DNA from: a virus
Lineage: Duplodnaviria; Heunggongvirae; Uroviricota; Caudoviricetes
IMG/VR virus record: IMGVR_UViG_3300045963_000153
Span: 1-64,000 of that record
Strand: one strand, 5' to 3'
DNA: 64,000 nt
In this document: positions 1,289-20,017 of the stretch, piece by piece
Layout of the letters: every line of letters starts with the position of its first letter
Position numbering within the stretch: position 1 is the stretch's first letter
The notes under the pieces: model-generated
What the model was told of the DNA's origin: nothing
Databases searched by the model: none
What the model saw: only the letters and a program-made list of their open reading frames with translations
Position numbers and translations under genes: made by a program

Positions 1289-1468
1289 TTATTTAATAAA
1301 TTTAAAAACGCTAATTTTTTTAACCATAACATGTGTACCTTCAGCATCAACAAAAAAACTAGTTGCATCACCAAATTGCACACGTTCTTTAAACTCGTCT
1401 TCAGTTCCGTTAAAATTGATGATATATTTTTTTCCATTCTCTAATTCCAATTCTGCTTTAATATTCAT
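1289..1468 (-). CDS. hypothetical small protein (59 aa, MNIKAELELENGKKY...)
   Basis: Short ORF with an ATGA overlap onto the nadV stop. It was not in the ORF track because it is under 60 aa. Confidence 0.3.
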   Translation of the reverse strand: MNIKAELELENGKKYIINFNGTEDEFKERVQFGDATSFFVDAEGTHVMVKKISVFKFIK

Positions 1469-2934
1469 ACTAATTGTTCCTTTAATCGATTACGAATCGT
1501 ACTGAGAGATTCATCTACAAGTAGTTTACCATCTTTAAAGATTTCTACAAGTAAATTTCCTTCAATACTATCATTTTTTGTTAATCCATCTAAACATACG
1601 ATTTGATTGTTGTTTTTAACAACAGCAACACGACCACGTTTAGAATTTTTTGTTCCATCATCGGTTTTTGGTGCTTTAAAAATTGCTTTCTCATCTCCAT
1701 TAATAGTGACTGAAGTGGCTTTCATTGCAAAACCAAATGTATCCCTAGTATTAAATTGATAAGTAAAACTACCAACGCCAAAAACAATATTTGTACTACA
1801 AAATCCTTTTGACTTAAGACCTTCACAAATTTCTTGTGCTCTCTTAAGAGTAATACTATCGCCATAAATAGCACCAATATGAGAGTCAAGAAGTTTATAA
1901 CTTGAAGCATTTAATGTTCCTCCAAATGTATCATATAAACATTCAATAAGACCTTTTTTAGCAAATTCATTATCACTATTAACATCACCACAGACAATTT
2001 TTACTGGATCTCCACTGTCTGGACGAATAACAAGTTTACCATCTCTCGCCATAATAATATCTTTAATTTGTGGTAAAACATTACCAACAATATTCCAAAA
2101 ATCCCAAGTATCTGATACTACCGAAAGAATACCTTTTGGATGTACTTCTGTTAATAAACGAAGAAACGTTTGTTTCTCATCAGAACCACCAGCAGACATT
2201 ACAGAGTGTTCGGTGGCAAACACTGAAGTTCCAACAAGTTCCTTTTCAACATTAGCATTATAAAATTCTTCTGCTCCAAGGATAGCTGGAATTGTATCTG
2301 TTCCAGCAAATGAAACTAAATGTCCAAGACCACTATTGATTGAACTGTTTACTGAACTCATTCCTCGCATAGCAAAATCGTGTGCTTGAAAATCAATAAA
2401 TCCAAGATCTCCACCAGTTTGTTTTGCATAATTAGTGAGAAGTTTTCTGTATTGATGTGCAATAGTTGCTGATGTCGATGATTGCCAAAGCTCACAAGAA
2501 ATTAATGTTTCAAGAAAGTTTGTTAACCAAAAAAATCTAGAATCTGTATTTTCAATAGTCATCATAGGAACACGAATTGGGCATAGTGTCCCTTCTGGAA
2601 GTGCTTTAATTGATAGTGGTAAATAACCTAAATCATGTAACTCTTCAATATGTTTAGTTTCTGGGTTAGCATCAAAAAATGCATTCTTCATGATACGAAC
2701 ATAATTTGCAATTACTTGTTCTTTTGGTTGACTAAAAAAATTATTATTAAATTCACCAATCAAAAATTCTTTAATTAACTTTTGTTGACCAAAACTTACA
2801 ACACCATCCACGTTAGGAATTAGTGATTGTCTTGGAGTCCAAGTGGAATAAACAACTTCTGTTCCTGTTGGATATTGTTGACGATGATGAAGCTTATATG
2901 CATCTGCTAATAACATTACCTGTGTGTTTTTCAT
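1465..2934 (-). CDS. nadV: nicotinamide phosphoribosyltransferase family protein (NAMPT/NadV-like; Namat candidate)
   Basis: N-terminal LLADAYKLHHRQQYP matches NAMPT LLATDSYKVTHYKQYP. Further family matches are FWLTNFLETL, HDFAMRGMSS, GTDT, VVSDTWD, RPDSGDP and YGDSIT. Confidence 0.85.
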   Translation of the reverse strand: MKNTQVMLLADAYKLHHRQQYPTGTEVVYSTWTPRQSLIPNVDGVVSFGQQKLIKEFLIGEFNNNFFSQPKEQVIANYVRIMKNAFFDANPETKHIEELHDLGYLPLSIKALPEGTLCPIRVPMMTIENTDSRFFWLTNFLETLISCELWQSSTSATIAHQYRKLLTNYAKQTGGDLGFIDFQAHDFAMRGMSSVNSSINSGLGHLVSFAGTDTIPAILGAEEFYNANVEKELVGTSVFATEHSVMSAGGSDEKQTFLRLLTEVHPKGILSVVSDTWDFWNIVGNVLPQIKDIIMARDGKLVIRPDSGDPVKIVCGDVNSDNEFAKKGLIECLYDTFGGTLNASSYKLLDSHIGAIYGDSITLKRAQEICEGLKSKGFCSTNIVFGVGSFTYQFNTRDTFGFAMKATSVTINGDEKAIFKAPKTDDGTKNSKRGRVAVVKNNNQIVCLDGLTKNDSIEGNLLVEIFKDGKLLVDESLSTIRNRLKEQLV

Positions 2935-2935
2935 T

Positions 2936-3391
2936 CTATTCCTCTTTCATGTTTGGATCGCAAATAGTAATACTAATCATATACCTTTTACAAAGTAAAG
3001 TCAATAGTTTCTCTGTTTCTTCCCAATTTACTTTAAACCCACCACTATTAATTTTTGGCATATAAAAATTCTCTTTAAATATTATTGAGTTAAAGAAAGA
3101 ATTTAATGCCAAACCCGTATAAAAATTAATTGAATATGGATCGTCTGGATTTTGACTATCTCCGTTAGAAACATATAAGTTAACTAACCCAAACTCATCG
3201 TAATCATAATAATCATAGGTTCCAAGATCTGAGTATTTACAATATTCTTGATAATCAATAAACATTTTAGGATTAAATTCTTTCAAGGCTTTGGCAACAC
3301 CAGAATCCCATTTTCCCTCGATATTGCAAGATTGGATCAATATACCGTCAGAAGGTACATCCAATACTGACATTTTTTTATAGATTAACAT
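2936..3391 (-). CDS. mini-macro (Macro_2-like) ADP-ribose-binding or processing domain protein
   Basis: ILIQSCNIEGKWDSGVAKALKEFNP resembles the hhh(Q/H)xxNCxGxxGxGhAKxh start of phage mini-macro domains. The first ATG with a purine-rich RBS is at 3391 (MLIYKK); the longer track ORF begins with TTG. Confidence 0.4.
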   Translation of the reverse strand: MLIYKKMSVLDVPSDGILIQSCNIEGKWDSGVAKALKEFNPKMFIDYQEYCKYSDLGTYDYYDYDEFGLVNLYVSNGDSQNPDDPYSINFYTGLALNSFFNSIIFKENFYMPKINSGGFKVNWEETEKLLTLLCKRYMISITICDPNMKEE

Positions 3392-4155
3392 GGTACTTCT
3401 TGTCCTCGACAAATAATTCTATTATAACCAGTCTCTTTTACATCTTTTAATCTATTAGGTTGAATAATATGACTAATATGAAGGTCAATAGACTTACTAA
3501 TAGATTTTAAATCTTTAATAATATTAATAAATGTTGCTCCCCCATCAATAAGGTCATCGCATACAAGAACATTTCCTAACTCAAACTTTTCTGGTATATA
3601 TAACTTCATTTCTAATATCTTGCCAGTAGAAGGATCTCTATGCTTTTCAAAATATCCTTTATCAGCTTTATTAAAAGCAAAAGGAATATGCGTAAACATT
3701 TCAGAGTAGCGAGTTAACGCACCTTTATCTGGAAAAATAATTGTATCGTAGAAATGTTTATTATCTTCAAAATAAATAGCTAACTCATAAGGAAGAATAT
3801 TAATAACATGTGATCGGATTGCTTCAACATTATGAATATCATACGCACTTTTCTCACATTGCATTAATGATAAAACCGTTTTGAAAGTATTTAAAGCAAA
3901 TGTACTACCAGATAAAAACATTGGTTTATCCTGTCGTGCATATGGAAGTGTTGGCATATAAATTCTATGTTCAATATCATTTGCGGATAATACTTGTGAT
4001 AATTGTAATAAATGAAAAATTTCTGCATCATTTTCAAATTTAAAAATAATTTCATTCATTTCTTTATATTTAACAAAATTAGTTAATCCCCAAACTTGAT
4101 GAGTATTATCTGGAAATTTTGTTGGTTTAATTTCATGTCCATTAAGTGTAATCAT
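3385..4155 (-). CDS. ribose-phosphate pyrophosphokinase (Prs) family protein, shortened (Adps-like candidate)
   Basis: MPTLPYARQDK matches the Prs IPYFGYARQDR signature. VLVCDDLIDGGATF matches the PRTase/Prs VLVDDMIDTGGT motif. Length is 256 aa versus about 315 aa for cellular Prs. Confidence 0.8.
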   Translation of the reverse strand: MITLNGHEIKPTKFPDNTHQVWGLTNFVKYKEMNEIIFKFENDAEIFHLLQLSQVLSANDIEHRIYMPTLPYARQDKPMFLSGSTFALNTFKTVLSLMQCEKSAYDIHNVEAIRSHVINILPYELAIYFEDNKHFYDTIIFPDKGALTRYSEMFTHIPFAFNKADKGYFEKHRDPSTGKILEMKLYIPEKFELGNVLVCDDLIDGGATFINIIKDLKSISKSIDLHISHIIQPNRLKDVKETGYNRIICRGQEVPC

Positions 4156-5171
4156 TTTTTCTCCAATTTAATTAATCCGTCCATTGAATTTTTATGGCAT
4201 AAATCACGATACATACATGGTCTGTAATAACCATCATTGTCGCATTTAGTAAGATCTGGAGTGATTTCCCCACTATTAATCTTATCATTTACCATTCCAA
4301 TATTATCTATCACAGCATCAATAAATTCAATAGGAATTTCATCAATAATAATTTGCATTGAACATGTTGGATGTAAAGTCTCTTCCCACTCACCATTGCA
4401 TCGCACAGGTTTTGGTGGATTAGATAAAAGTTGTGCCACTTCATTATCACAAGTTTTAAATTTACCGCCACTACCATCTTTATTACATATTTTGCAGATT
4501 TTCTTTTTGTTCTTTTTAATATTCTTAGAAAATACTACATAACCTGCTAAATTGGTATTGTATTTATCTCCCAATGTATATAGGTATTGTGATAACTGAA
4601 TTGATTCTTTTACAGAGTTTGCTTCATAATCTTTACTAGCGGTTTTAAAATCAAGTACAATCGGTTTATCATAACCTTTAAGCTTAACTACAGCATCTGC
4701 ATAACCTACGTTAGAATCGTCACCGGAGGTTAATAATACTTCTTCCTCTGTGCTATAGACTTTTTCTAATAATGGAATAAAATTGGTAATAAACGAATCA
4801 ATCATTAAGTGTGCTTTAGTTCTTAATGATTCCCAAGGTGTCTCACCAAAATCAATGTCAAAATCTGATTTACTATAAACAACATTTATAGATTCTTTTA
4901 GATTTACTGTAACATTATTAAATTCTTGGAATGTCCATGCTTTATCAAAAAAATCTTTGGCAATAGAAATATCTACCTGATTGTTTGTAAATGCTTGTAG
5001 AATATGTTCAAAGGTTTTACCGATTGCACTACCAAAAATTAATGGACTAGCAATACTTGTTGGTCGAAGACGCTCAACATAGTGGTTATACCAAGCTCTT
5101 TCACAAAATTGAAATTTTTGAATCTGAGAATGCGAAAGACGGTTAGCCATTTTAAAAATCTCCCTTGGCAC
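4152..5171 (-). CDS. PD-(D/E)XK nuclease, Cas4/RecB-like, with C-terminal Cys cluster
   Basis: The N-terminus SHSQIQKFQFCERAWYNHYVERLRP is Cas4/YqaJ-like. GYADAVVKLKGYDKPIVLDFKT is a D...(D/E)xK core. C-terminal cysteines (C...C..C......C) suggest an Fe-S or Zn site. Confidence 0.5.
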   Translation of the reverse strand: MPREIFKMANRLSHSQIQKFQFCERAWYNHYVERLRPTSIASPLIFGSAIGKTFEHILQAFTNNQVDISIAKDFFDKAWTFQEFNNVTVNLKESINVVYSKSDFDIDFGETPWESLRTKAHLMIDSFITNFIPLLEKVYSTEEEVLLTSGDDSNVGYADAVVKLKGYDKPIVLDFKTASKDYEANSVKESIQLSQYLYTLGDKYNTNLAGYVVFSKNIKKNKKKICKICNKDGSGGKFKTCDNEVAQLLSNPPKPVRCNGEWEETLHPTCSMQIIIDEIPIEFIDAVIDNIGMVNDKINSGEITPDLTKCDNDGYYRPCMYRDLCHKNSMDGLIKLEKK

Positions 5172-6045
5172 AAGCTAATGTTACAATTCCACGACTTCTC
5201 CACATATCAACAACTCTCGCCCTATCATCAATAGCAAATTTAATATTTGCAAATCTTGTTTTTATTTCAAAATCTAAAATAATTTCTTTTACTAACTTAT
5301 CATCCCTATGATCTGCACGAGGACGCATCATAAGATAATCATAAAAGAATTTATTATCTTCCAACCATTTTTTAGTTTGTGGTTTTAATGAATCTGGTCT
5401 GCCAGAACAAAAAACAATGAGATTTTTATCTCTCATACTGTTAACAATTTCTCTACACCACTGATTCGGTGTATCTAAATGTATATTATCAAAAAAAGAT
5501 TTCCAATCTGCTTTTTTTCCATCTTTCTTATCAACAAAATATAGCCTGTGGTCTATATTTGCTGCTGTTCCATCGATATCAACCAAAATTGCAGAACTTC
5601 TATTTGTAATGTTTGGATAACGGTATTCAACCGTATCGGCTTCATCAAAAGTAGGACGTTCATATTTACTAAAAAACATATTTAATGCATTTTTAGCATG
5701 TTCTTCGGTTGTAATTGTTGGGTGATCAAGTCTAGCATTACATCTTTTAAGACAAGTCTCATAGTTTTCATGCATAACAATGATTTGTGTTTCGTATCCA
5801 GATTCTTTCGCTGGGTTTAGATAACGAGCACGTTGTTCTTTATTAAAATTAAGACGATCCATAACAATGTTACGTTTACATTCAATAGCAGCTTTAAACA
5901 TAGTCAAATGACCAGATTTAGTATGATCATCCTGATTGATACGAAGAAAATGATTTCCATCAGATTCTAATTGAGATGAAATTGAATGTGCTAATGAAGT
6001 TTTGCCAGCACCGCTTGGACCACAGAGGATAATTAATTTTGGCAT
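5152..6045 (-). CDS. pnk: polynucleotide 5'-kinase / 3'-phosphatase (T4 PseT/Pnk homolog)
   Basis: P-loop ILCGPSGAGKTS at the N-terminus. HAD phosphatase motif ILVDIDGTAAN. The C-terminal FAIDDRARVVDMWRSRGIVTLACAKGDF aligns with T4 Pnk [28 protein letters not shown]. Confidence 0.9.
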   Translation of the reverse strand: MPKLIILCGPSGAGKTSLAHSISSQLESDGNHFLRINQDDHTKSGHLTMFKAAIECKRNIVMDRLNFNKEQRARYLNPAKESGYETQIIVMHENYETCLKRCNARLDHPTITTEEHAKNALNMFFSKYERPTFDEADTVEYRYPNITNRSSAILVDIDGTAANIDHRLYFVDKKDGKKADWKSFFDNIHLDTPNQWCREIVNSMRDKNLIVFCSGRPDSLKPQTKKWLEDNKFFYDYLMMRPRADHRDDKLVKEIILDFEIKTRFANIKFAIDDRARVVDMWRSRGIVTLACAKGDF

Positions 6046-6046
6046 A

Positions 6047-6331
6047 TTATGCCTTACGTCTAAATGTAGGAGCCATATATTCTTCTACTTCATATGGAAC
6101 ACAGTATGAAAAATCAGTTCCATCATAACTATCATAATGACCATTAGCTTGAACAAAAAAAGTTTCTCCGTCTTTACATGTAATTTTATACACATAAGTA
6201 TAAGTTTCTCCCTCACCTTCTCCACCACTTTCAAGAGCATTATGAATTAATACTCCTTTAATTTCTGGCGTAGTATAATGATCATATTGTAATTGTTTTT
6301 GAATTTCATTAATAATTTCGATTTTAGTCAT
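6047..6331 (-). CDS. hypothetical small acidic protein, paralog A (GGEGEGE motif)
   Basis: 94 aa. Shares the GGEG(D/E)G, GxYxSxD and YEVEEY motifs with the adjacent ORF. Confidence 0.4.
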   Translation of the reverse strand: MTKIEIINEIQKQLQYDHYTTPEIKGVLIHNALESGGEGEGETYTYVYKITCKDGETFFVQANGHYDSYDGTDFSYCVPYEVEEYMAPTFRRKA

Positions 6332-6620
6332 GTTTTTTAACCTTTCTCCAATCTTTAACTTCTTTAATATATTCTTCTACTTCATATGCTTTATCATCAA
6401 ACTGGTTACTATCCCAACTACTATAATATCCATCAATACGAAACAAAGCTACTTCTTTTCCTTGAGAAATTTCAAAAATATAAGATAGAGGAGCACCGTC
6501 CCCTTCACCACCGACTTCAGCTTCAATTTGAACGTCATAACCTTCTAATTCAAATTCTTCATAATAACCACCGTCCATCATAAAATTTGATAATTCTTTG
6601 ACAATTAACTTTTTATCCAT
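6324..6620 (-). CDS. hypothetical small acidic protein, paralog B (GGEGDG motif)
   Basis: 98 aa. Tandem paralog of 6047-6331. Confidence 0.4.
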   Translation of the reverse strand: MDKKLIVKELSNFMMDGGYYEEFELEGYDVQIEAEVGGEGDGAPLSYIFEISQGKEVALFRIDGYYSSWDSNQFDDKAYEVEEYIKEVKDWRKVKKHD

Positions 6621-7353
6621 TTTTCATCCCCTTATGTATTTGAAAATAACGTTCGTTCATTTGATTAAATCTTAAATCAAAATAGTTGTCAATTAAAAAT
6701 AAATTAAACCATCCTGTAGTTGAAGAAGTAATTAATTGCTTTAACGCTTTAGCTAATGCAATTTTAGGTGGATATTCTAAATATCTTTCAATTCCAAATA
6801 CATAAGCTTCTTCTAACGCACATTTAAGTTTTTCTTCATGAGTAATTTTGTCCCAAAGTAATTTGCTACACTTTACACTATGTAAATTGGGGCGAATAGT
6901 TTCATGTAATGGTCTATCGCCAAATTTAACAAGTTCATGTAATTCATCGTGATTATATTTTCTAGTAATTTTTGAAGTAAAGAATGTATCTGTATCGCCT
7001 TCAAGTTTTACTTTTTTCTTGTGGTGGATTATAGACCAGTCTTCCAAAAGACTCTCATAAAGCTCATAATTGAGTTTACAGCCCTTATCTTTCATGAACT
7101 TGATATCATGCATAGTCTTATCGAAATTGATATCATAGCAAGCGTGAGAGATTTTAATAGTATATAGGAAGTTTGGATCTACATACCGAGTATCACTATT
7201 AAATTTTACAATATGTTTAAAAGATGGAGCAAAATGGTATTCTATTCCTTTTCCGCTTTTACCTTTACCAATATAGTCAAGATCTTTTGGGTTTCTTGGA
7301 AAATCAGGAAACCAATGTTTTAGTGCTGTGCTACCAAAAATTAAATTATCCAT
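6613..7353 (-). CDS. putative Pol-beta-superfamily nucleotidyltransferase
   Basis: The N-terminal LIFGSTALKHWFPDFPRNPKDLDY fits a GS...D.D nucleotidyltransferase motif. Weak. Confidence 0.35.
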   Translation of the reverse strand: MDNLIFGSTALKHWFPDFPRNPKDLDYIGKGKSGKGIEYHFAPSFKHIVKFNSDTRYVDPNFLYTIKISHACYDINFDKTMHDIKFMKDKGCKLNYELYESLLEDWSIIHHKKKVKLEGDTDTFFTSKITRKYNHDELHELVKFGDRPLHETIRPNLHSVKCSKLLWDKITHEEKLKCALEEAYVFGIERYLEYPPKIALAKALKQLITSSTTGWFNLFLIDNYFDLRFNQMNERYFQIHKGMKNG

Positions 7354-8326
7354 TTTTTACCACTTGAGAATATACATCATATACAAAATTGTCAATCCAA
7401 GTTTGATCTGGGGTTTCTCTAAGTGATGATGTCATTTGTGCTGCTTGAAGTTTTTCTAAACCATCAACAATAATATCGGCAACTTCATTATATTCCATTT
7501 TACCAATTTTAATATTTAAAAGTAATTCTCGATCTGGTCTTGGGAATGTAACAAATGAAGTTTTAAGTAATTCTAATCCTTGTGAATTAACTCTAACCGC
7601 ATGTGAAAGTGCTTTCCAGTCGATTCCTTCGTTTAATTCTGCTTTTAGTGCTCTCTGCCCATATTGATCAAAACGTCTTTGGACTTGATCTCTAGCCATT
7701 TTAACGGAACTATTAAAAGCATAGTGCTTATCACATACTTTTAAAAACATATCTTTAGTTCCAAACTTATTATCTAATTCCACAATAGAAATAAATTCAT
7801 TATTTGAATCTACAACAAAATTAATTAAAGCGATGTGATTTTCATGAAGTTTACTATGTAAATGTAATTTTTCTAAAAAAGAAATAGTATCTCGTAAAGC
7901 AGCAACACGAAATCCTTTTAAACCATATTTTGCTGCTTGCTGTCTTGCATAGCCAATAAATGCTGCAAGATTTTTAGAAATTAATTTTTCTCTATTATTG
8001 TAGATGTCAGAAAAGATATAGAAATCATCTTTATTTAAATATGTAAACATTCCAAGTGGAGCAAATAAAATATCAAGGGAAACAGTTTGACCTTCAGATA
8101 ATAATTTAAGATATCGATCTAAACTAAATATTTCAACGTCAACATCATCTTTGGTGTTACGTTCATTTACCGCTTTTGGTCTTTGTGTACTAATTGTTTT
8201 TTTATAATTACCTAAAACAATTTCACGAGCTTCTGGAATATATATTGATTTTAAATCTAGATCTGAGTTTGGCGTAGAGGTGCCGTAAAGGGCACTTCCA
8301 AATTTAAGTTCAAATAATTTATTCAT
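7346..8326 (-). CDS. Pol-beta-superfamily nucleotidyltransferase (minimal-NTase / RlaP-like)
   Basis: FGSALYGTSTPNSDLDLKSIYI is a canonical hG[GS]x9-13Dh[DE]h nucleotidyltransferase motif near the N-terminus. An alpha-helical C-terminal domain follows. Confidence 0.6.
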   Translation of the reverse strand: MNKLFELKFGSALYGTSTPNSDLDLKSIYIPEAREIVLGNYKKTISTQRPKAVNERNTKDDVDVEIFSLDRYLKLLSEGQTVSLDILFAPLGMFTYLNKDDFYIFSDIYNNREKLISKNLAAFIGYARQQAAKYGLKGFRVAALRDTISFLEKLHLHSKLHENHIALINFVVDSNNEFISIVELDNKFGTKDMFLKVCDKHYAFNSSVKMARDQVQRRFDQYGQRALKAELNEGIDWKALSHAVRVNSQGLELLKTSFVTFPRPDRELLLNIKIGKMEYNEVADIIVDGLEKLQAAQMTSSLRETPDQTWIDNFVYDVYSQVVKNG

Positions 8327-9818: not shown

Positions 9819-10034
9819 TTAGCTTTGCTCATAATTATTTAGCCAAGTATTAACTTCTTCAGAGTCTGGAAGTTTTTTAATAATCAAATATGCTTTATTT
9901 AAAAGAAATTCATACTCCATGTTTTTTTTCATGGTTTGAACATTTAAATCGCCAATGAATAAAGCTTCTTCCGTTGGATCTGGAGCTTTAAACTTAACTA
10001 ATAAATTTTGCAATGATTTCGTTAACCGAAGCAT
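9819..10034 (-). CDS. hypothetical protein
   Basis: 71-aa ORF. Confidence 0.3.
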   Translation of the reverse strand: MLRLTKSLQNLLVKFKAPDPTEEALFIGDLNVQTMKKNMEYEFLLNKAYLIIKKLPDSEEVNTWLNNYEQS

Positions 10035-11550
10035 CGAATCCTACCACCCTTAAAATATTTGCATCGTTTTGAGGAAAATTAGTGACCCCATTGGCAACCA
10101 TTGCCACTTCTATAACTTTAACATTTTTATTAATAGTACGGCGATACTCATTTAAAAGATCAATTGAATGTCTACCACCAGCATATGTTTCACTATCAGT
10201 TAAAATTACAATAGCATCAAACTTGCGTTTAGTTTGTAATGCATACTGAATTGGAATAGAACAATCTGTGCCTCCTCCATGAGTAACGGCTTTCATAGCA
10301 TCAGTAATCGCTGTACGTTTACCCAAAGCAATCTGTTGTAGTTGTGTATCAAATGCAATTAATTCTGCATTAGGTTCAGTTTTAAGAGTTGTTAGAGCAA
10401 GCACAGCACCGAGTTGTGTTGCTGTAAAAGATGTACCGCCGACTTCGGTATTCATGCTTCCAGATACATCTAAACCAACAAGGATGTTTTTACCTGTCGC
10501 ATTAAAATCTTCTACAGAATTATGATAAGCATCTTCTAATGCATCTACAAGCTTTTGATTTACAGGCCAAGTTCCATTACCTTTAAATCCTTTACCACTA
10601 GCATATGTTTTCAAATAATTAACAATATTAACTGGATGAAGTTTTGAATATTTAATTGAAGATTTATTTAGTTTTGTTGTTATAATAGCTTTTGTTGTAT
10701 CACTTAAACCCTCGGTTAATTTAGCATTAGCAAATCTATTTAAATTTCTAATGGTAGCAGTAACAGGCATATTTGGAAGTAATGATTTTAAAACTGTAGC
10801 ATTATTTAATTGATCGGTAGGAATCATTTCCCAAGCTAACTTGTTTTTAACAACAGTATCAACTAGAAGTTCGCCTTCCAATGTTTTGGAAGCTTCAAAC
10901 CCTAAAATTAAACTATTTGTTGTTTCTGGAACTGTACCAGAAACAATATACTTTAAAATTTCATTAATTTGTGGATCTGCACATTTAACATGACAAAGAC
11001 GAAGAACATCTCTATGTGTAAACCCAGAACGATTGCGATATTTTAAAATTTGATAAGTAAGATCTTGTGGAGTTTTTGAAGTATACCAGCGTCCAACAGC
11101 TTTACGAAGTCCAGAAGACCAACCCTTTAAAGTATTTGCTTGAGACACAAATGTTAACAGATGTGTACCTGTACGACAAATTAAATTTAAATTAGTATAA
11201 ATACACTTACGAGTATAATCATCTCCATAAGTAACACAAAGGGCGGCTACAAACAATACCGTATCATATTTCGGAGCATTGTGTGCTTCAATTGTATCAA
11301 AAAGAATATCAACAACAGATTCGCCATGTTGCTTAATTAATTTAATAATTTCAGCAGATGTCTCAATTGTTAATTTTGCTTCCCCAACGTAATATGTTCC
11401 ACCAGTAGAACCAATCAGTAAAAATCTACGAAGTAGCTGTTCTCCAGTGATTGCAAATGAATACCCTTCGGCATTGTTTTTAATCATTTCTGGATAGGCA
11501 GGATGTTTTGTTTTTTGATTTACATTTGAAATTACTTGTGCGTAGTCCAT
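9994..11550 (-). CDS. rsr: Ro60 ortholog (TROVE domain + von Willebrand A domain; Rsr)
   Basis: The N-terminal ~350 aa has a TROVE-like helical repeat region (YYVGEAKLTIETSAEI..., LRKAVGRWY). The C-terminal vWA domain has the MIDAS motif LVGLDVSGSM...GGTD...TDSET. Confidence 0.75.
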   Translation of the reverse strand: MDYAQVISNVNQKTKHPAYPEMIKNNAEGYSFAITGEQLLRRFLLIGSTGGTYYVGEAKLTIETSAEIIKLIKQHGESVVDILFDTIEAHNAPKYDTVLFVAALCVTYGDDYTRKCIYTNLNLICRTGTHLLTFVSQANTLKGWSSGLRKAVGRWYTSKTPQDLTYQILKYRNRSGFTHRDVLRLCHVKCADPQINEILKYIVSGTVPETTNSLILGFEASKTLEGELLVDTVVKNKLAWEMIPTDQLNNATVLKSLLPNMPVTATIRNLNRFANAKLTEGLSDTTKAIITTKLNKSSIKYSKLHPVNIVNYLKTYASGKGFKGNGTWPVNQKLVDALEDAYHNSVEDFNATGKNILVGLDVSGSMNTEVGGTSFTATQLGAVLALTTLKTEPNAELIAFDTQLQQIALGKRTAITDAMKAVTHGGGTDCSIPIQYALQTKRKFDAIVILTDSETYAGGRHSIDLLNEYRRTINKNVKVIEVAMVANGVTNFPQNDANILRVVGFDASVNEIIAKFIS

Positions 11551-11574: not shown

Positions 11575-11710
11575 GACTGATAAATGTCGTTTATTGGGTT
11601 TTTTCTATCGCTCTACCAACTGAGCTATCCCCCGTCAAAAATGTTCGGGGGAGCAAGAATCGAACTTGCGACATATAGTTCCCAGTATAACCAATAAACT
11701 ACGACCAGTC
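11575..11710 (-). ncRNA. yrlA: YrlA-like Y RNA: Ro60-binding bulged stem enclosing a permuted tRNA-like module
   Basis: On the minus strand: GACTGGTCGT(AG)TTTATTGG ... T-arm GCAAG-TTCGATT-CTTGC ... acceptor-like helix TCCCCCG/CGGGGGA closed by an 11-nt loop ... D-arm GCTC-AGTTGGTA-GAGC ... CCAATAAACGAC-ATTTAT-CAGTC. The 5' and 3' ends pair with an AG bulge, and a U-run follows. It lies immediately upstream of rsr on the same strand. Confidence 0.6.
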
Positions 11711-11797
11711 AAAAATATGGTAGATAAAGATTAAATAAAGGCATTTGGCTTCAAGATAGTTGAAAACCTTTATTTGACGACCTACCAGTAAAATTTT

Positions 11798-11928
11798 GCA
11801 AAGAAATAAATATTGAGATGGATATAGTGCGTTACCAATTACGCCACCAGAGGATTACTCCACCAGATGGGACTCGAACCCATAACACTTCATTAACAGT
11901 GAAAACCCATCTCTAACGACCTCTCTGC
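11798..11928 (-). ncRNA. second tRNA-like or Y-like RNA element (canonical T-arm GGTTCGAGTCC, anticodon-like arm with a GUU loop, D-arm-like GCG-TAATTGGTAA-CGC; no canonical acceptor pairing)
   Basis: The minus strand has TTTCA-CTGTTAA-TGAAG (a perfect 5-bp stem with a 7-nt loop, U33/A37, Asn-like GUU) and ATGGG-TTCGAGT-CCCAT. The termini GCAGAG/CTTTGC and GAGATGG/CCATCTC can pair. A hairpin plus U-tract (about 11713-11790) separates it from YrlA. Confidence 0.3.
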
Positions 11929-11972
11929 TTAATTAGTTTACGTCATACAAAATATGAAGTCAACAATTATTT

Positions 11973-13826: not shown

Positions 13827-14036
13827 GTGCCTCTCTCATGTTGTTAAAATGGTCAGGTAGCTGGTGACGCTCCAGATCCCTCGCTTCACAGGCGAGTACA
13901 TTGACTAACTATATGCTACTACCTGTATAAAATTATAGCCCTCTCGTGTGCGTTACACCAGCGTCATCGTGGGTAATCCAACCCAGTGAATACACAGTCA
14001 TTTCCCACTCCTACCAAGGGCACCGTAGGATTACAA
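13827..14036 (-). promoter_or_regulatory. GC-rich structured 5' leader of nrdJ (candidate riboswitch or cis-regulatory RNA; weak cobalamin-riboswitch-like motifs)
   Basis: A 210-nt ORF-free gap of about 50% GC inside a 30% GC genome. Perfect hairpin CTCGC-CTGTGAA-GCGAG and long-range pairing GACGCT/AGCGTC. The minus strand reads GGTGCC..GGGAA..GATGACGCTGGTGTAACGC, reminiscent of the GGTG / GGGAA / GCTGACGC..GGTAA blocks of B12 elements. Confidence 0.3.
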
Positions 14037-19195: not shown

Positions 19196-20017
19196 TTACT
19201 TCGATAAATTAATAAACGGAACAGATCCACCGTTAGTCATCATTGAAGGAAGCACACCATTCCACTTTTGAATAGCTTCGTATTGTAAAAGTTGTGGAGT
19301 AATTGATGCCATTTTTTGACGATTAGCTTCAGCTTCTCCCCTTGCAATTGCAATAGCTTTCTCTGCTTGCGCTTTAGCTTGTGCTACTTCGTTTTGAACT
19401 TTCATTGCATCTTGAGTTGCAGTGATTTTAGAATTAAGTGCTGCTACTACAGTCTCAGGAAGACGCATAGACCCAACAAGATAAAGTTTATCAATAATGA
19501 TACCAATATCTTTAGTTTGAGCTGCTACATCATTCTGTGCTGCTAGAAGAAGATCAGACTTTTTTGGTCCATAAACATCTTCAACACTCATGGTAGATGA
19601 AGCTTTGTTTAAAGAATCTCGTACCATGTTGCGAATAAACACATGGGTAATTTCATCAATTCCTTTGCGGTATTTTTGAAAGATTGTAGATACTTTAGTT
19701 GGATCAATTTCATAACTGATACCAATATCGGTATTGATTGATAATCCTTCTTTAGTTTGGAATGTAAACGATTCGTCTTCATTACGACCTTCTGTTGCAG
19801 ATTTAGTCCAGACGTAATTTTGCATAGAAGTTGGGAAAGTAAATAATTGTTCGTTCATACCAATCCAATAACGACCTACTGGAAGTACTTCATGATCAAC
19901 ACCTTTAGATCCACCAAGCATGTAAACTTTTACTCCCACAAAACCTGCAGGTACTTGGCTACATGCAGACAATCCTAACATCATAACTAAAGACAACAAC
20001 ATTAACATTTGTTTCAT
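19196..20017 (-). CDS. SPFH/band-7 (prohibitin/HflC-like) lipoprotein
   Basis: LSAC lipobox. An SPFH core, then the Ala/Gln/Glu-rich coiled coil VQNEVAQAKAQAEKAIAIARGEAEA typical of HflK/C-stomatin proteins. Confidence 0.65.
   Translation of the reverse strand: MKQMLMLLSLVMMLGLSACSQVPAGFVGVKVYMLGGSKGVDHEVLPVGRYWIGMNEQLFTFPTSMQNYVWTKSATEGRNEDESFTFQTKEGLSINTDIGISYEIDPTKVSTIFQKYRKGIDEITHVFIRNMVRDSLNKASSTMSVEDVYGPKKSDLLLAAQNDVAAQTKDIGIIIDKLYLVGSMRLPETVVAALNSKITATQDAMKVQNEVAQAKAQAEKAIAIARGEAEANRQKMASITPQLLQYEAIQKWNGVLPSMMTNGGSVPFINLSK

What the first reader, a model, noticed from the sequence alone, without database searches (positions are those of the whole stretch)
11713..11928. Second tRNA-like element in tandem with YrlA: canonical T-arm plus an anticodon-like arm (GUU) but no acceptor pairing
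The minus strand carries a textbook T-arm (ATGGG-TTCGAGT-CCCAT). Four nt upstream is a perfect 5-bp/7-nt anticodon-like hairpin TTTCA-CUGUUAA-TGAAG with U33, A37 and anticodon GUU. Downstream is a D-arm-like GCG-TAATTGGTAA-CGC.
No 5' acceptor strand complements the 3' CTGGTGG. The order T-arm, then short hairpin, then D-arm is again permuted. The element's ends (GCAGAG/CTTTGC, GAGATGG/CCATCTC) can pair like a Y-RNA closing stem. A hairpin plus U-run (11713-11790) separates it from YrlA.
It could be a second Y-like RNA (YrlB-like) mimicking tRNA-Asn, or a degenerate tRNA gene. The motif GGTCGT recurs three times on this strand (in both closing stems and the spacer hairpin).
Basis: seen in the sequence. 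Interest (0 to 1): 0.6.

Follow-up and report, generated by a model that had tools for sequence, protein, structure and literature searches.

The report
Second tRNA-like Y RNA beside phage Ro60
The element is a real, conserved small RNA gene: a second tRNA-shaped "Y RNA" of the known YrlA type, first of three tandem Y RNAs transcribed just upstream of a phage-encoded Ro60 (Rsr) protein, so it adds to a known family and is not a new kind of element.

Summary
On the minus strand, 11928-11798 (131 nt, here called E1) has the full architecture of a YrlA-class Y RNA:
- two closing helices around a GGUCG/UUUAU internal loop, the putative Ro-binding site;
- a 5-bp hairpin with a 7-nt loop;
- a 4-nt variable loop and a T arm;
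- U8-G9 and a D arm.

A covariance model built only from two other contigs hits E1 at 82 bits (E about 1e-19). Across 45 homologues, 34 of 35 base pairs show compensatory changes.

The "anticodon-like arm" is the "V" stem-loop already described for YrlA RNAs. Many homologues keep anticodon-loop geometry there (7-nt loop, U33, R37, 9-10 nt before the T stem). The triplet itself varies, so there is no tRNA-Asn identity.

The "spacer hairpin" (11787-11718) is itself a short YrlB-like Y RNA. The locus therefore reads: promoter, E1, E2, YrlA (E3), rsr, in a phage that also carries RlaP-like and PNKP genes.

Verdict: a new member of a known kind, of moderate interest. Binding to Rsr and any effector are inferred, not shown.

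The parts
11935..11963 (-). Sigma-70-like promoter: TTGACT, 17 nt, TAAACT. G11928, the first base of E1, lies 7 nt after the -10 element.
   Evidence: 9 of 12 consensus matches. The same arrangement (TTGACA, 18 nt, TATACT, 6 nt, G) precedes the orthologue in L001.
11798..11928 (-). E1, the finding: a complete YrlA-class tRNA-like Y RNA, 131 nt.
   Evidence: Model R1 hit 11800-11927, 82.3 bits, E = 7e-20. Rfam partial hits: YrlA 23 bits and tRNA 25 bits. Fold z-score -3.6.
11921..11928 (-). P1 outer closing helix, 5' strand GCAGAGAG. It pairs with 11805-11798.
   Evidence: Sequence. The P1 pairs all show compensatory changes in 45 homologues and in the unfitted alignment.
11798..11805 (-). P1 outer closing helix, 3' strand UUCUUUGC.
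11916..11921 (-). GGUCGU, the 5' half of the putative Rsr/Ro60-binding internal loop (GNCG motif).
   Evidence: Near-invariant G(G/N)(U/C)CG in all aligned homologues. Motif GNCGAAN0-1G of Chen et al. 2014.
11806..11814 (-). AAUAUUUAU, the 3' half of the internal loop (conserved UUUAU(C) motif).
   Evidence: Conserved (A/U)UUUAUC in homologues.
11907..11913 (-). P2 inner closing helix, 5' strand GAGAUGG. It pairs with 11821-11815. This is the anticodon-stem equivalent in the published YrlA drawing.
   Evidence: all 8 model pairs covary.
11815..11821 (-). P2 inner closing helix, 3' strand CCAUCUC.
11888..11904 (-). It is followed by the 4-nt variable loop UGUU (11887-11884).
   Evidence: The three inner model pairs covary strongly (e.g. 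UA:21/CG:17); the outermost is often unpaired. In the alignment 40 of 45 loops are 7 nt, with U33 in 38 of 40 and R37 in 39 of 40. A model-free scan shows the same enrichment.
11867..11883 (-). T arm AUGGG-UUCGAGU-CCCAU.
11847..11866 (-). Closed acceptor-like stem-loop (AS): CUGGUGGA-GUAA-UCCUCUGG, 8 bp with one U.U and a GNRA loop. It is followed by U8-G9 (11846-11845).
   Evidence: Orthologue UCGGAGC-GUAA-GCUUCGG. The AS pairs covary.
11829..11844 (-). D arm GCGU-AAUUGGUA-ACGC (A14, A15, G18, G19). A15 can form the Levitt pair with U48 (11884).
   Evidence: Levitt-pair rule from Chen et al. 2014.
11718..11787 (-). E2: a short YrlB-like Y RNA (UGGUAGGUCGU...CUUUAUCUACCA), followed by a U-run at 11715-11711.
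   Evidence: Fold z-score -4.1. It shares GGUCG and UUAUC with 12 short modules next to rsr in other contigs, with covariation in both helices.
11575..11710 (-). E3: the previously recognised YrlA, with no convincing V hairpin.
   Evidence: Rfam RF02553 40.3 bits, E = 1e-6. R1 57.1 bits.
9994..11550 (-). rsr, the Ro60 orthologue (518 aa).
   Evidence: Pfam TROVE 1e-26 and vWA_Ro60 3e-42.

Best explanation
E1 (11928-11798, minus strand) is a gene for a YrlA-class bacterial/phage Y RNA. It is a paralogue of the YrlA 90 nt downstream and the first of three Y RNAs (E1, short E2, E3) in the leader of a phage rsr (Ro60) gene.

**Shown here**
- Its 5' and 3' ends pair into two helices, P1 and P2. They flank an internal loop carrying the family-wide GGUCG / UUUAU(C) motifs.
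- The apical part is a circularly permuted tRNA-like domain: V hairpin, variable loop, T arm, closed acceptor-like hairpin, U8-N9, D arm.
- The nucleotides for the tRNA elbow (G18, G19, T loop) and the Levitt pair (A15:U48) are present.
- The structure is conserved with covariation in 45 homologues.
- A conserved promoter places the predicted transcription start at the first base of E1.

**Inferred from work on YrlA, Yrn1 and phage phiLo Yrl RNAs**
- The GGUCG loop is bound by the phage Rsr ring.
- The RNA gates the Rsr cavity and uses its L-shaped tRNA mimic to tether Rsr to a partner that recognises tRNA shape or to an exoribonuclease such as host PNPase.
- The three modules are cut out of one precursor.

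Keeping distinct paralogues, V-bearing (E1 type) and V-less (E3 type), in related phages suggests they recruit different partners. The likely setting is tRNA/RNA damage control during infection, given the RlaP-like and PNKP genes next door.
For: **Architecture and family**
- Sequence anatomy.
- R1, built from L162 and L163 only, hits E1 at 82.3 bits (E = 7e-20) and E3 at 57.1 bits. These are the only two hits in the window.
- In 45 aligned homologues, 96.2% of cells are paired against 61% in shuffles and 34-47% when partners are slid. 34 of 35 pairs show double changes.
- RNAalifold on an unfitted MAFFT alignment of 11 orthologues independently recovers P1, T, AS and D with compensatory changes.
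- The closest homologue (Rsr 76% identical) has the same three modules, with compensatory changes in the T stem, D stem, AS and P1.

**Genomic context**
- rsr identity.
- Promoter, conserved in L001.
- The window is a phage, with terminase, portal and major head protein. It also carries an RlaP-like nucleotidyltransferase and a PNKP.

**Link to described YrlA RNAs**
- Cultured actinophages BearBQ and Blubba carry the same architecture, V hairpin included, upstream of annotated Ro-like genes.
- Definition of YrlA, including the V stem-loop, GNCG motif and Levitt covariation: PMC4201824.
- tRNA-like crystal structure: bioRxiv 10.1101/312249.
- Phage Ro60 binding two upstream Yrl RNAs and host PNPase: PMC12135203.
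Against: - There is no expression, end-mapping or Rsr-binding data for this RNA. Everything is sequence-based.
- Rfam RF02553 scores E1 at only 23 bits, partial, against a gathering score of 69. The same model also fails on the neighbouring YrlA (40 bits) and on actinophage YrlAs (33 bits or no hit).
- The motif is GGUCGUUAG, not the published GNCGAA.
- The YUAY motif is UUUU here.
- The AS contains a U.U mismatch and four G-U pairs.
- The alignment used for pair counting was fitted to the model, which inflates pairing percentages.
- No intrinsic terminators were detected, so the 3' ends are undefined.
Confidence: 0.85

Rival explanations
1. It is a cis-acting leader. The three structured modules act mainly in cis on the rsr mRNA, for example by attenuation at the U-runs, protection of the 5' end, or autoregulation by Rsr binding its own leader. 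They would not be released as stable trans-acting Y RNAs.
For: - All three modules lie between the only clear upstream promoter and the rsr start codon, on the same strand, each followed by a U-run.
- No canonical terminators separate them.
- M. smegmatis YrlA and YrlB are likewise made from one precursor upstream of rsr.
Against: - In M. smegmatis and phage phiLo the equivalent upstream RNAs are discrete and bound by Rsr.
- In related contigs the same modules sit downstream of rsr (L003, L194). There they cannot be a 5' leader.
- A conserved tRNA elbow and Levitt pair are not needed for attenuation.
Confidence: 0.07
2. It is a permuted pre-tRNA. E1 would be a circularly permuted or split tRNA precursor. 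The P1/P2 handle is excised and the ends ligated, possibly by the phage PNKP plus a ligase. The acceptor loop is then opened by RNase P/Z and CCA added, giving a decoding tRNA with anticodon GUU.
For: - The hairpin, variable loop and T arm have exact tRNA spacing, and the Rfam tRNA model scores them at 25 bits.
- U33, R37 and A38 are conserved in homologues.
- M. smegmatis YrlA with a 7-bp AS is cut by RNase P and receives CCA. The L001 orthologue has a 7-bp AS.
- Wang et al. raised this possibility in general terms.
- A PNKP gene lies nearby.
Against: - No bulge-helix-bulge or other known excision signal is present, and no bacterial or phage enzyme for such splicing is known.
- In the window the AS has 8 pairs with a U.U mismatch and four G-U pairs, with no CCA or discriminator context.
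- V stems in homologues are mostly only 3-4 bp.
- The invariant GGUCG/UUUAUC handle and the linkage to rsr point to Ro binding.
- The triplet varies even between close orthologues (GUU, CUU, CUG).
Confidence: 0.04
3. It is a decayed tRNA remnant. E1 would be a non-functional relic of tandem tRNA genes (3' part of one, 5' part of the next) that happens to sit upstream of rsr.
For: - T-arm, spacer, D-arm strings are produced by ordinary tandem tRNA genes. My pattern scans of viral contigs retrieved only such arrays.
- The window has another odd tRNA-like call nearby.
Against: - The permuted order plus the P1/P2 handle is conserved with compensatory changes in 45 homologues whose GC content ranges from 34% to 68%.
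- The AS is a closed hairpin with a GNRA loop, not two acceptor halves plus a spacer.
- Promoter placement is conserved.
Confidence: 0.02

Closest known systems
YrlA RNAs (Salmonella Typhimurium, Mycobacterium smegmatis, mycobacteriophages; Chen et al. 2014, PMC4201824; Rfam RF02553; crystal structure PDB 6CU1)
   Same: - Encoded next to rsr.
- A GNCG-type motif near the 5' end, in an internal loop of the end-to-end stem.
- A permuted tRNA-like domain in the order (V), T arm, closed acceptor-like stem, U8-N9, D arm.
- Elbow nucleotides and a 15:48 Levitt pair.
- The optional 'V' stem-loop upstream of the T arm.
- The same architecture is found with my model in Gordonia phage BearBQ and Mycobacterium phage Blubba.
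   Different: - Very divergent in sequence: RF02553 gives only 23 bits, partial.
- The motif is GGUCGUU instead of GNCGAA, and YUAY is UUUU.
- It occurs as one of two YrlA-type paralogues plus a short Y RNA in the same leader.
- It has an unusually complete 5-bp, 7-nt-loop V hairpin. Salmonella YrlA, the crystallised one, has no V hairpin and is described as lacking an anticodon loop.
YrlB / Yrn2-type short Y RNAs
   Same: Same locus, the same putative Ro-binding motif and the same closing helix. Window E2 (11787-11718) is of this kind.
Thermus phage phiLo Yrl1/Yrl2 with phage Ro60 (PMC12135203)
   Same: A phage-encoded Ro60 with more than one Y-like RNA immediately upstream. Those RNAs have a CGAA-type motif in a stem-bulge-stem, bind the phage Ro60 and form ternary complexes with host PNPase.
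   Different: In the passages I searched, the phiLo RNAs are described as stem-bulge-stem Y RNAs, and the terms 'YrlA' and 'tRNA-like' do not occur in the text. I made no sequence comparison with them.
Circularly permuted tRNA genes (Cyanidioschyzon merolae and others) and tandem (dimeric) tRNA transcripts
   Same: - The T arm precedes the D arm, the acceptor stem is closed by a loop, and the ends pair.
- The dimeric-tRNA origin model for YrlA is cited by Wang et al.. Ordinary tandem phage tRNAs give the same T...D string.
   Different: - No processing signals are present.
- The handle carries a Ro-binding motif.
- There is no evidence that a mature tRNA is made.
Deinococcus radiodurans Yrn1
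   Same: A Ro-bound Y RNA with a T-arm-like loop. Chen et al. note a potential 5-bp 'anticodon arm'.
   Different: The orientation of the T and D elements differs. Its loop is 6 nt and it has no V arm, and it is considered to have evolved independently.

Membership tests
YrlA-class Y RNA (Chen et al. 2014) | Encoded within about 2 kb of an rsr/Ro60 orthologue | tested here: met
   E1 ends 248 nt upstream of the rsr ATG (11550), on the same strand. rsr matches TROVE and vWA_Ro60.
YrlA-class Y RNA (Chen et al. 2014) | GNCGAAN0-1G-type motif near the 5' end (putative Ro-binding site) | tested here: met
   GGUCGUUAG at 11921-11913. The GNCG core is present, but UU replaces AA. The L001 orthologue has GGUCGAAUUG. 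G(G/N)(U/C)CG is near-invariant in the alignments.
YrlA-class Y RNA (Chen et al. 2014) | T stem-loop with a tRNA-like UUCRA loop | tested here: met
   AUGGG-UUCGAGU-CCCAU. All 5 pairs covary across homologues.
YrlA-class Y RNA (Chen et al. 2014) | Closed acceptor-like stem-loop (AS) between the T and D arms | tested here: met
   CUGGUGGA-GUAA-UCCUCUGG. The AS pairs covary.
YrlA-class Y RNA (Chen et al. 2014) | D stem-loop with G18 and G19, preceded by the U8-N9 dinucleotide | tested here: met
   UG + GCGU-AAUUGGUA-ACGC.
YrlA-class Y RNA (Chen et al. 2014) | Levitt pair 15:48 (G:C or A:U) | tested here: met
   A15 (11839) and U48 (11884) in E1, against G15:C48 in E3. Rule.
YrlA-class Y RNA (Chen et al. 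2014) | 5' and 3' ends pair into a long stem interrupted by an internal loop | tested here: met
   P1 (8 bp) and P2 (7 bp). All 14 model pairs in these two helices show compensatory changes.
YrlA-class Y RNA (Chen et al. 2014) | Optional fourth 'V' stem-loop upstream of T, introduced by YUAY | tested here: met
   UUUCA-CUGUUAA-UGAAG. The YUAY position reads UUUU here and UUAU in most homologues.
YrlA-class Y RNA (Chen et al. 2014) | Bound by Rsr; carries tRNA modifications (pseudouridine 55, dihydrouridine) | not testable with these tools
   Needs co-immunoprecipitation, EMSA and modification mapping.
Rfam RF02553 (YrlA) as curated | Score at or above the gathering threshold of 69 bits | tested here: not met
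   23 bits, model positions 27-81 only. E3 scores 40.3, Blubba 33.2, and BearBQ has no hit. The curated model does not reach this branch of the family.
Canonical tRNA (tRNA-Asn) | Contiguous cloverleaf with a 5'/3' acceptor stem, detectable by tRNA finders | tested here: not met
   ARAGORN makes no call at this site. Rfam tRNA gives 25.2 bits, below 29, and aligns only the anticodon-like and T arms.
Canonical tRNA (tRNA-Asn) | Conserved anticodon identity among orthologues | tested here: not met
   GUU (window, L163), CUU (L001), CUG (L162), UGU and others. There are 26 triplets among 40 loops.
YrlB-type short Y RNA | Ro-binding stem capped by a small loop, without T/AS/D arms | tested here: not met
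   E1 has all three arms. E2 (11787-11718) fits this class instead.
Circularly permuted tRNA gene | Processing to a mature, aminoacylatable tRNA (excision signal at the junction, CCA end) | not testable with these tools
   I saw no obvious excision motif by eye. Small-RNA sequencing is needed.

The most novel reading that the evidence does not exclude
The 'V' stem-loop of E1 and of many YrlA-class RNAs may be a selected mimic of the tRNA anticodon stem-loop, not a nondescript variable arm.

**Basis**
- It has a 7-nt loop with Y32, U33, NNN, R37, A38.
- The loop ends 9-10 nt before the T stem, the spacing of tRNA positions 39-48. In most homologues a tRNA-like xGGUC variable loop follows; in E1 it is UGUU.
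- These RNAs would then be complete five-helix tRNA replicas (acceptor, D, anticodon and T arms) with a Ro-binding handle inserted between the D arm and the anticodon arm.

**Possible role**
- In a phage that also carries PNKP and an RlaP-like nucleotidyltransferase, such a replica could present an anticodon loop to host anticodon nucleases or to tRNA modification and repair enzymes.
- It would then act as a decoy, sensor or recruiting bait that brings Rsr and a nuclease or repair enzyme to damaged tRNAs.
- The papers I could read call this element 'less conserved' and state that YrlA lacks an anticodon loop.
Probability: 0.2. Interest if true: 0.65.

Novelty: new member of a known kind. Interest (0 to 1): 0.4.

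Why it matters
It shows that an uncultured phage carries a three-gene Y RNA array in front of its own Ro60: two different tRNA-shaped YrlA paralogues and a short Y RNA. Close relatives carry up to six modules (read by eye).

This extends the known repertoire of phage Ro60/Y RNA systems. It also shows that the curated Rfam YrlA model misses most of this diversity.

The side observation that the V hairpin keeps anticodon-loop hallmarks across very divergent sequences gives a testable handle on an open question: what the tRNA-like domain of YrlA RNAs binds. It also bears on the proposal that these RNAs arose from tRNA genes.

The element itself fits an established family, so the advance is incremental.

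Tried and rejected
- **Rfam at gathering thresholds.** Nothing in the whole window, not even the neighbouring YrlA. Permissive E-value searches were needed.
- **Nucleotide search of GenBank phages.** Megablast of the locus found no match. tblastn with Rsr found only relatives at 34% identity or less.
- **The search for related loci with the single Rsr protein.** Nothing in viral contigs. An alignment query was needed.
- **The one metagenome scan.** Close relatives came from exact-protein look-ups instead.
- **Pattern scans of viral contigs for 'T arm, 14-40 nt, E1-type D arm'.** These retrieved only ordinary tandem tRNA genes, so they were not used.
- **MAFFT plus RNAalifold.** It could not recover P2 or V because of register shifts. 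These two helices rest on the model-fitted alignment and on a model-free hairpin scan.
- **Reviews by Sim & Wolin (2018) and Sim et al. (2020).** Not held in the library under the ids I tried, one of them recalled from memory. I could not check whether the anticodon-like signature of V has been described.
- **My first reading of the AS** as a 9-bp helix with a G.G mismatch. I replaced it with the 8-bp/GUAA register that matches L001.
- **Two GGTCGT copies at 19784 and 19871.** They lie inside an ORF and are unrelated.
Full report
**1. What is in the sequence**

Read on the minus strand, the 422-nt gap between a class II ribonucleotide reductase-like ORF (13826-11973) and an Ro60/Rsr gene (11550-9994) holds three structured modules. 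The Rsr gene matches Pfam TROVE at 1e-26 and vWA_Ro60 at 3e-42.

The finding covers the first two modules. The first, E1, is 11928-11798 and reads as follows.

| Element | Sequence | Coordinates |
|---|---|---|
| P1, 5' strand | GCAGAGAG | 11928-11921 |
| Internal loop, 5' side | (G)GUCGUUA | motif GGUCGU at 11921-11916 |
| P2, 5' strand | GAGAUGG | 11913-11907 |
| Linker | GU | 11906-11905 |
| V hairpin | UUUCA-CUGUUAA-UGAAG | 11904-11888 |
| Variable loop | UGUU | 11887-11884 |
| T arm | AUGGG-UUCGAGU-CCCAU | 11883-11867 |
| Closed acceptor-like hairpin (AS) | CUGGUGGA-GUAA-UCCUCUGG | 11866-11847 |
| U8-G9 | UG | 11846-11845 |
| D arm | GCGU-AAUUGGUA-ACGC | 11844-11829 |
| Linker | ACUAUAU | 11828-11822 |
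| P2, 3' strand | CCAUCUC | 11821-11815 |
| Internal loop, 3' side | AAUAUUUAU | 11814-11806 |
| P1, 3' strand | UUCUUUGC | 11805-11798 |

The standard detectors give the following.
- ARAGORN calls no tRNA at this site.
- Rfam at curated thresholds reports nothing in the window.
- At permissive thresholds the tRNA model aligns the hairpin plus T arm (25.2 bits; threshold 29).
- The YrlA model aligns the T arm, AS and D arm (23 bits; threshold 69).
- The neighbouring E3 (11710-11575) is a full-length but sub-threshold YrlA hit (40.3 bits, E = 1e-6).

**2. Is it more than chance?**

E1 folds better than every one of 200 shuffles (z = -3.6). The stronger evidence is comparative.

The closest Rsr relative (76% identity, contig L001) has the same three modules in the same order behind the same promoter. 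Its E1 orthologue shows compensatory changes:
- T stem: G-C changed to A-U.
- D stem: G-C changed to U-A.
- P1: GCGGAGAG/CUCUCUGC.
- AS: a clean 7-bp stem, UCGGAGC-GUAA-GCUUCGG, with the same GNRA loop.

Further relatives at 50-54% Rsr identity carry an E1-type module of 126-134 nt (L005, L162-L164, L192-L195).

I built a covariance model (R1) from L162 and L163 only. It finds E1 full-length at 82.3 bits (E = 7e-20) and E3 at 57.1 bits. There are no other hits in the 64-kb window.

It also finds 85 matches in 88 viral/assembly loci plus the window, and 20 strong matches in 80 metagenome loci.

On the alignment of the 45 best matches, counted:
- 96.2% of cells are standard pairs, against 61% after shuffling and 34-47% when partners are slid by 1-3 columns.
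- 34 of 35 pairs show changes on both sides.
- Every helix covaries: P1, P2, V, T, AS and D.

That alignment is fitted to the model. As a check, RNAalifold on an unfitted MAFFT alignment of 11 orthologues independently predicts P1, T, AS and D, with 20 of 23 pairs showing compensatory changes. P2 and V are lost there because of register shifts.

**3. What it is**

Chen et al. 2014 (PMC4201824) define YrlA RNAs by these features:
- location next to rsr;
- a GNCGAAN0-1G motif near the 5' end;
- near-invariant T and D stem-loops with a third stem-loop (AS) between them;
- a Levitt 15:48 pair that covaries;

E1 meets each sequence-testable criterion. The Levitt pair is A15:U48 in E1 and G15:C48 in E3.

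The low Rfam score does not argue against membership. R1 finds the same architecture, V hairpin included, upstream of the annotated Ro-like genes of two cultured actinophages:
- Gordonia phage BearBQ: 75.7 bits.
- Mycobacterium phage Blubba: 47.1 bits.

RF02553 gives only 33 bits (partial) for Blubba and no hit for BearBQ.

**4. The 'spacer' is a third Y RNA**

E2 (11787-11718) has this layout:
- it folds into a long hairpin (z = -4.1);
- GGUCGU sits on its 5' side and CUUUAUC on its 3' side;
- a U-run follows it.

Twelve short modules next to rsr in other contigs share the invariant GGUCG and UAUC, and both of their helices covary. This matches the YrlB/Yrn2 type of short Y RNA described by Chen et al..

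The recurring GGTCGT is thus the 5' half of the shared putative Ro-binding site. RNAalifold pairs GGU with AUC, leaving CG in the loop.

**5. Transcription**

A sigma-70-like promoter (TTGACT, 17 nt, TAAACT; 11963-11935) places the expected start at G11928, the first base of P1. L001 has TTGACA, 18 nt, TATACT at the same distance.

No canonical terminator was found. The three RNAs and rsr are therefore probably made as one transcript and processed, as in M. smegmatis. That step is inferred.

**6. Context**

The window is a phage genome, with terminase large subunit, portal and major head protein.

Downstream of rsr on the same strand lie an RlaP-like nucleotidyltransferase (8326-7346) and a T4-type polynucleotide kinase-phosphatase (6045-5152). 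Further along are a NAMPT-like enzyme and a weak macro-domain hit.

The NrdJ-like/rsr neighbourhood recurs in related contigs.

**7. How it most likely works**

Shown: the conserved structure, the linkage to rsr and the promoter.

Inferred from the literature:
- The GGUCG/UUUAU loop is bound by the Rsr ring.
- The tRNA-like domain adopts the L shape seen in the Salmonella YrlA crystal structure. It tethers Rsr to a partner that recognises the tRNA elbow, or to an exoribonuclease.
- A phage Ro60 with two upstream Yrl RNAs forms ternary complexes with host PNPase in vitro (PMC12135203).

The window and its close relatives keep two distinct YrlA types. The E1 type has a V hairpin and D loop AAU(U)GGUAA. 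The E3 type has no V hairpin and D arm GCUCAGUUGGUAGAGC. Keeping both suggests division of labour.

**8. The anticodon question**

The GUU triplet is not conserved. Orthologues have CUU (L001), CUG (L162), GUU (L163) and UGU (L195), and there are 26 triplets among 40 loops. This excludes tRNA-Asn mimicry.

The hairpin's geometry, however, is conserved well beyond E1. In the 45-sequence alignment:
- 40 V loops are exactly 7 nt.
- U33 occurs in 38 of 40.
- A purine at position 37 occurs in 39 of 40.
- A38 occurs in 35 of 40.
- A pyrimidine at position 32 occurs in 35 of 40.
- The loop ends 9-10 nt before the T stem in 37 of 40. That is the length of tRNA positions 39-48, often with a tRNA-like xGGUC variable loop.

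A model-free scan of 73 unique rsr-linked T...D modules gives the same picture:
- 39 have a hairpin of at least 3 bp with a 7-nt loop at that distance, against 10.5 ± 2.9 in shuffles.
- 29 carry both U33 and R37, against 1.6 in shuffles.
- Other loop sizes are not enriched.

The stems covary through at least ten different sequences.

In the papers I could read, V is called 'less conserved' and YrlA is said to lack an anticodon loop. I could not access the 2018 and 2020 reviews, so I cannot say whether this signature has been reported.

It fits the tRNA-derived origin of YrlA. It also leaves open that V is a functional anticodon-arm mimic.

**9. Rivals**

- A purely cis-acting leader is possible but unlikely. 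The same modules lie downstream of rsr in L003 and L194, and the equivalents in M. smegmatis and phiLo are discrete, Rsr-bound RNAs.
- A permuted pre-tRNA that matures into a decoding tRNA is not excluded but lacks any processing signal.
- A decayed tandem-tRNA remnant is ruled out by the covariation.

**10. Verdict**

E1 is a new, divergent member of the known YrlA class, in a phage with a three-module Y RNA array. Among the 52 loci where my scan found a tRNA-like module, 17 carry two or more. Reading the upstream regions by eye, close relatives carry up to six Y RNA modules of both kinds.

Novelty: new member of a known kind. Interest is moderate, mainly because of the array organisation and the anticodon-like signature of the V hairpin.

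Noticed in passing
window 13850-13925 (-): ARAGORN calls a tRNA-His (GUG) just upstream of the NrdJ-like gene. The Rfam tRNA model reports nothing there, even at E up to 10. By eye it has a 7-bp acceptor stem, an encoded ACCA end and a good anticodon arm. Its T loop (AGCGUCA) and D loop lack the usual UUCRA and GG elbow motifs. It may be an atypical phage tRNA or another tRNA-like element.
   Followed up: partly
window 11684-11712 (-): A strong promoter-like match (TTGACT, 17 nt, TATACT; 10 of 12) lies across the 5' strand of E3/YrlA. It uses the GACUGGUCG stem and the GGUUAUAC motif. It could be coincidence, or an internal start giving a 5'-truncated YrlA.
   Followed up: no
L163:790-1480, L164:940-1490, L162:1030-1480, L005:2550-2980, L193:1115-1480: By eye, relatives with 50-54% identical Rsr carry four to six tandem Y RNA modules upstream of rsr, a mix of short and tRNA-like types. 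Each has GGUCG on the 5' side and UUUAUC on the 3' side. This is more than the two Y RNAs per characterised species in the papers I read.
   Followed up: partly
L005:2838-2977, L163:1007-1154, L164:1150-1282, L192:1284-1423, L194:3203-3341: The E3-type (V-less) YrlA paralogues of relatives carry an extra small hairpin, often with a GAAA-type loop, between the D arm and the 3' strand of P2. The window's E3 lacks it.
   Followed up: no
window 5152-8326 (-) and 1465-3412 (-): An RNA-repair/NAD-type gene set lies downstream of rsr: RlaP-like nucleotidyltransferase (7346-8326), T4-like PNKP (5152-6045), PD-(D/E)XK nuclease (4152-5171), NAMPT-like (1465-2934) and a weak macro-domain hit (2936-3412). 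No RNA ligase was looked for.
   Followed up: partly
L194:4201-4566: In a related contig a Thg1-like gene (tRNA-His guanylyltransferase family) lies about 1.1 kb downstream of rsr. Two Y RNA modules sit between them.
   Followed up: no
L165-L191 (viral contigs): Searching for 'T arm, 14-40 nt, GCTTAATGGTAAAGC D arm' retrieved only ordinary tandem tRNA genes in phage tRNA arrays. This shows how easily a dimeric tRNA transcript supplies the T...D order proposed as the origin of YrlA.
   Followed up: yes
L003:2118-2185, L193:1115-1181, L006:2909-2976 and other short modules: In the short Y RNAs the conserved GGUUAU appears to pair with a downstream AAUAAC, forming the apical hairpin GGUUAUUUUUGGAAUAAC (by eye). 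That would imply the YUAY motif is helical rather than the start of a loop.
   Followed up: no
whole window: The Rfam gathering-threshold scan returned no family at all for 64 kb of phage DNA that contains at least two YrlA-class RNAs. The curated RF02553 model is insensitive to phage and metagenomic YrlAs.
   Followed up: yes
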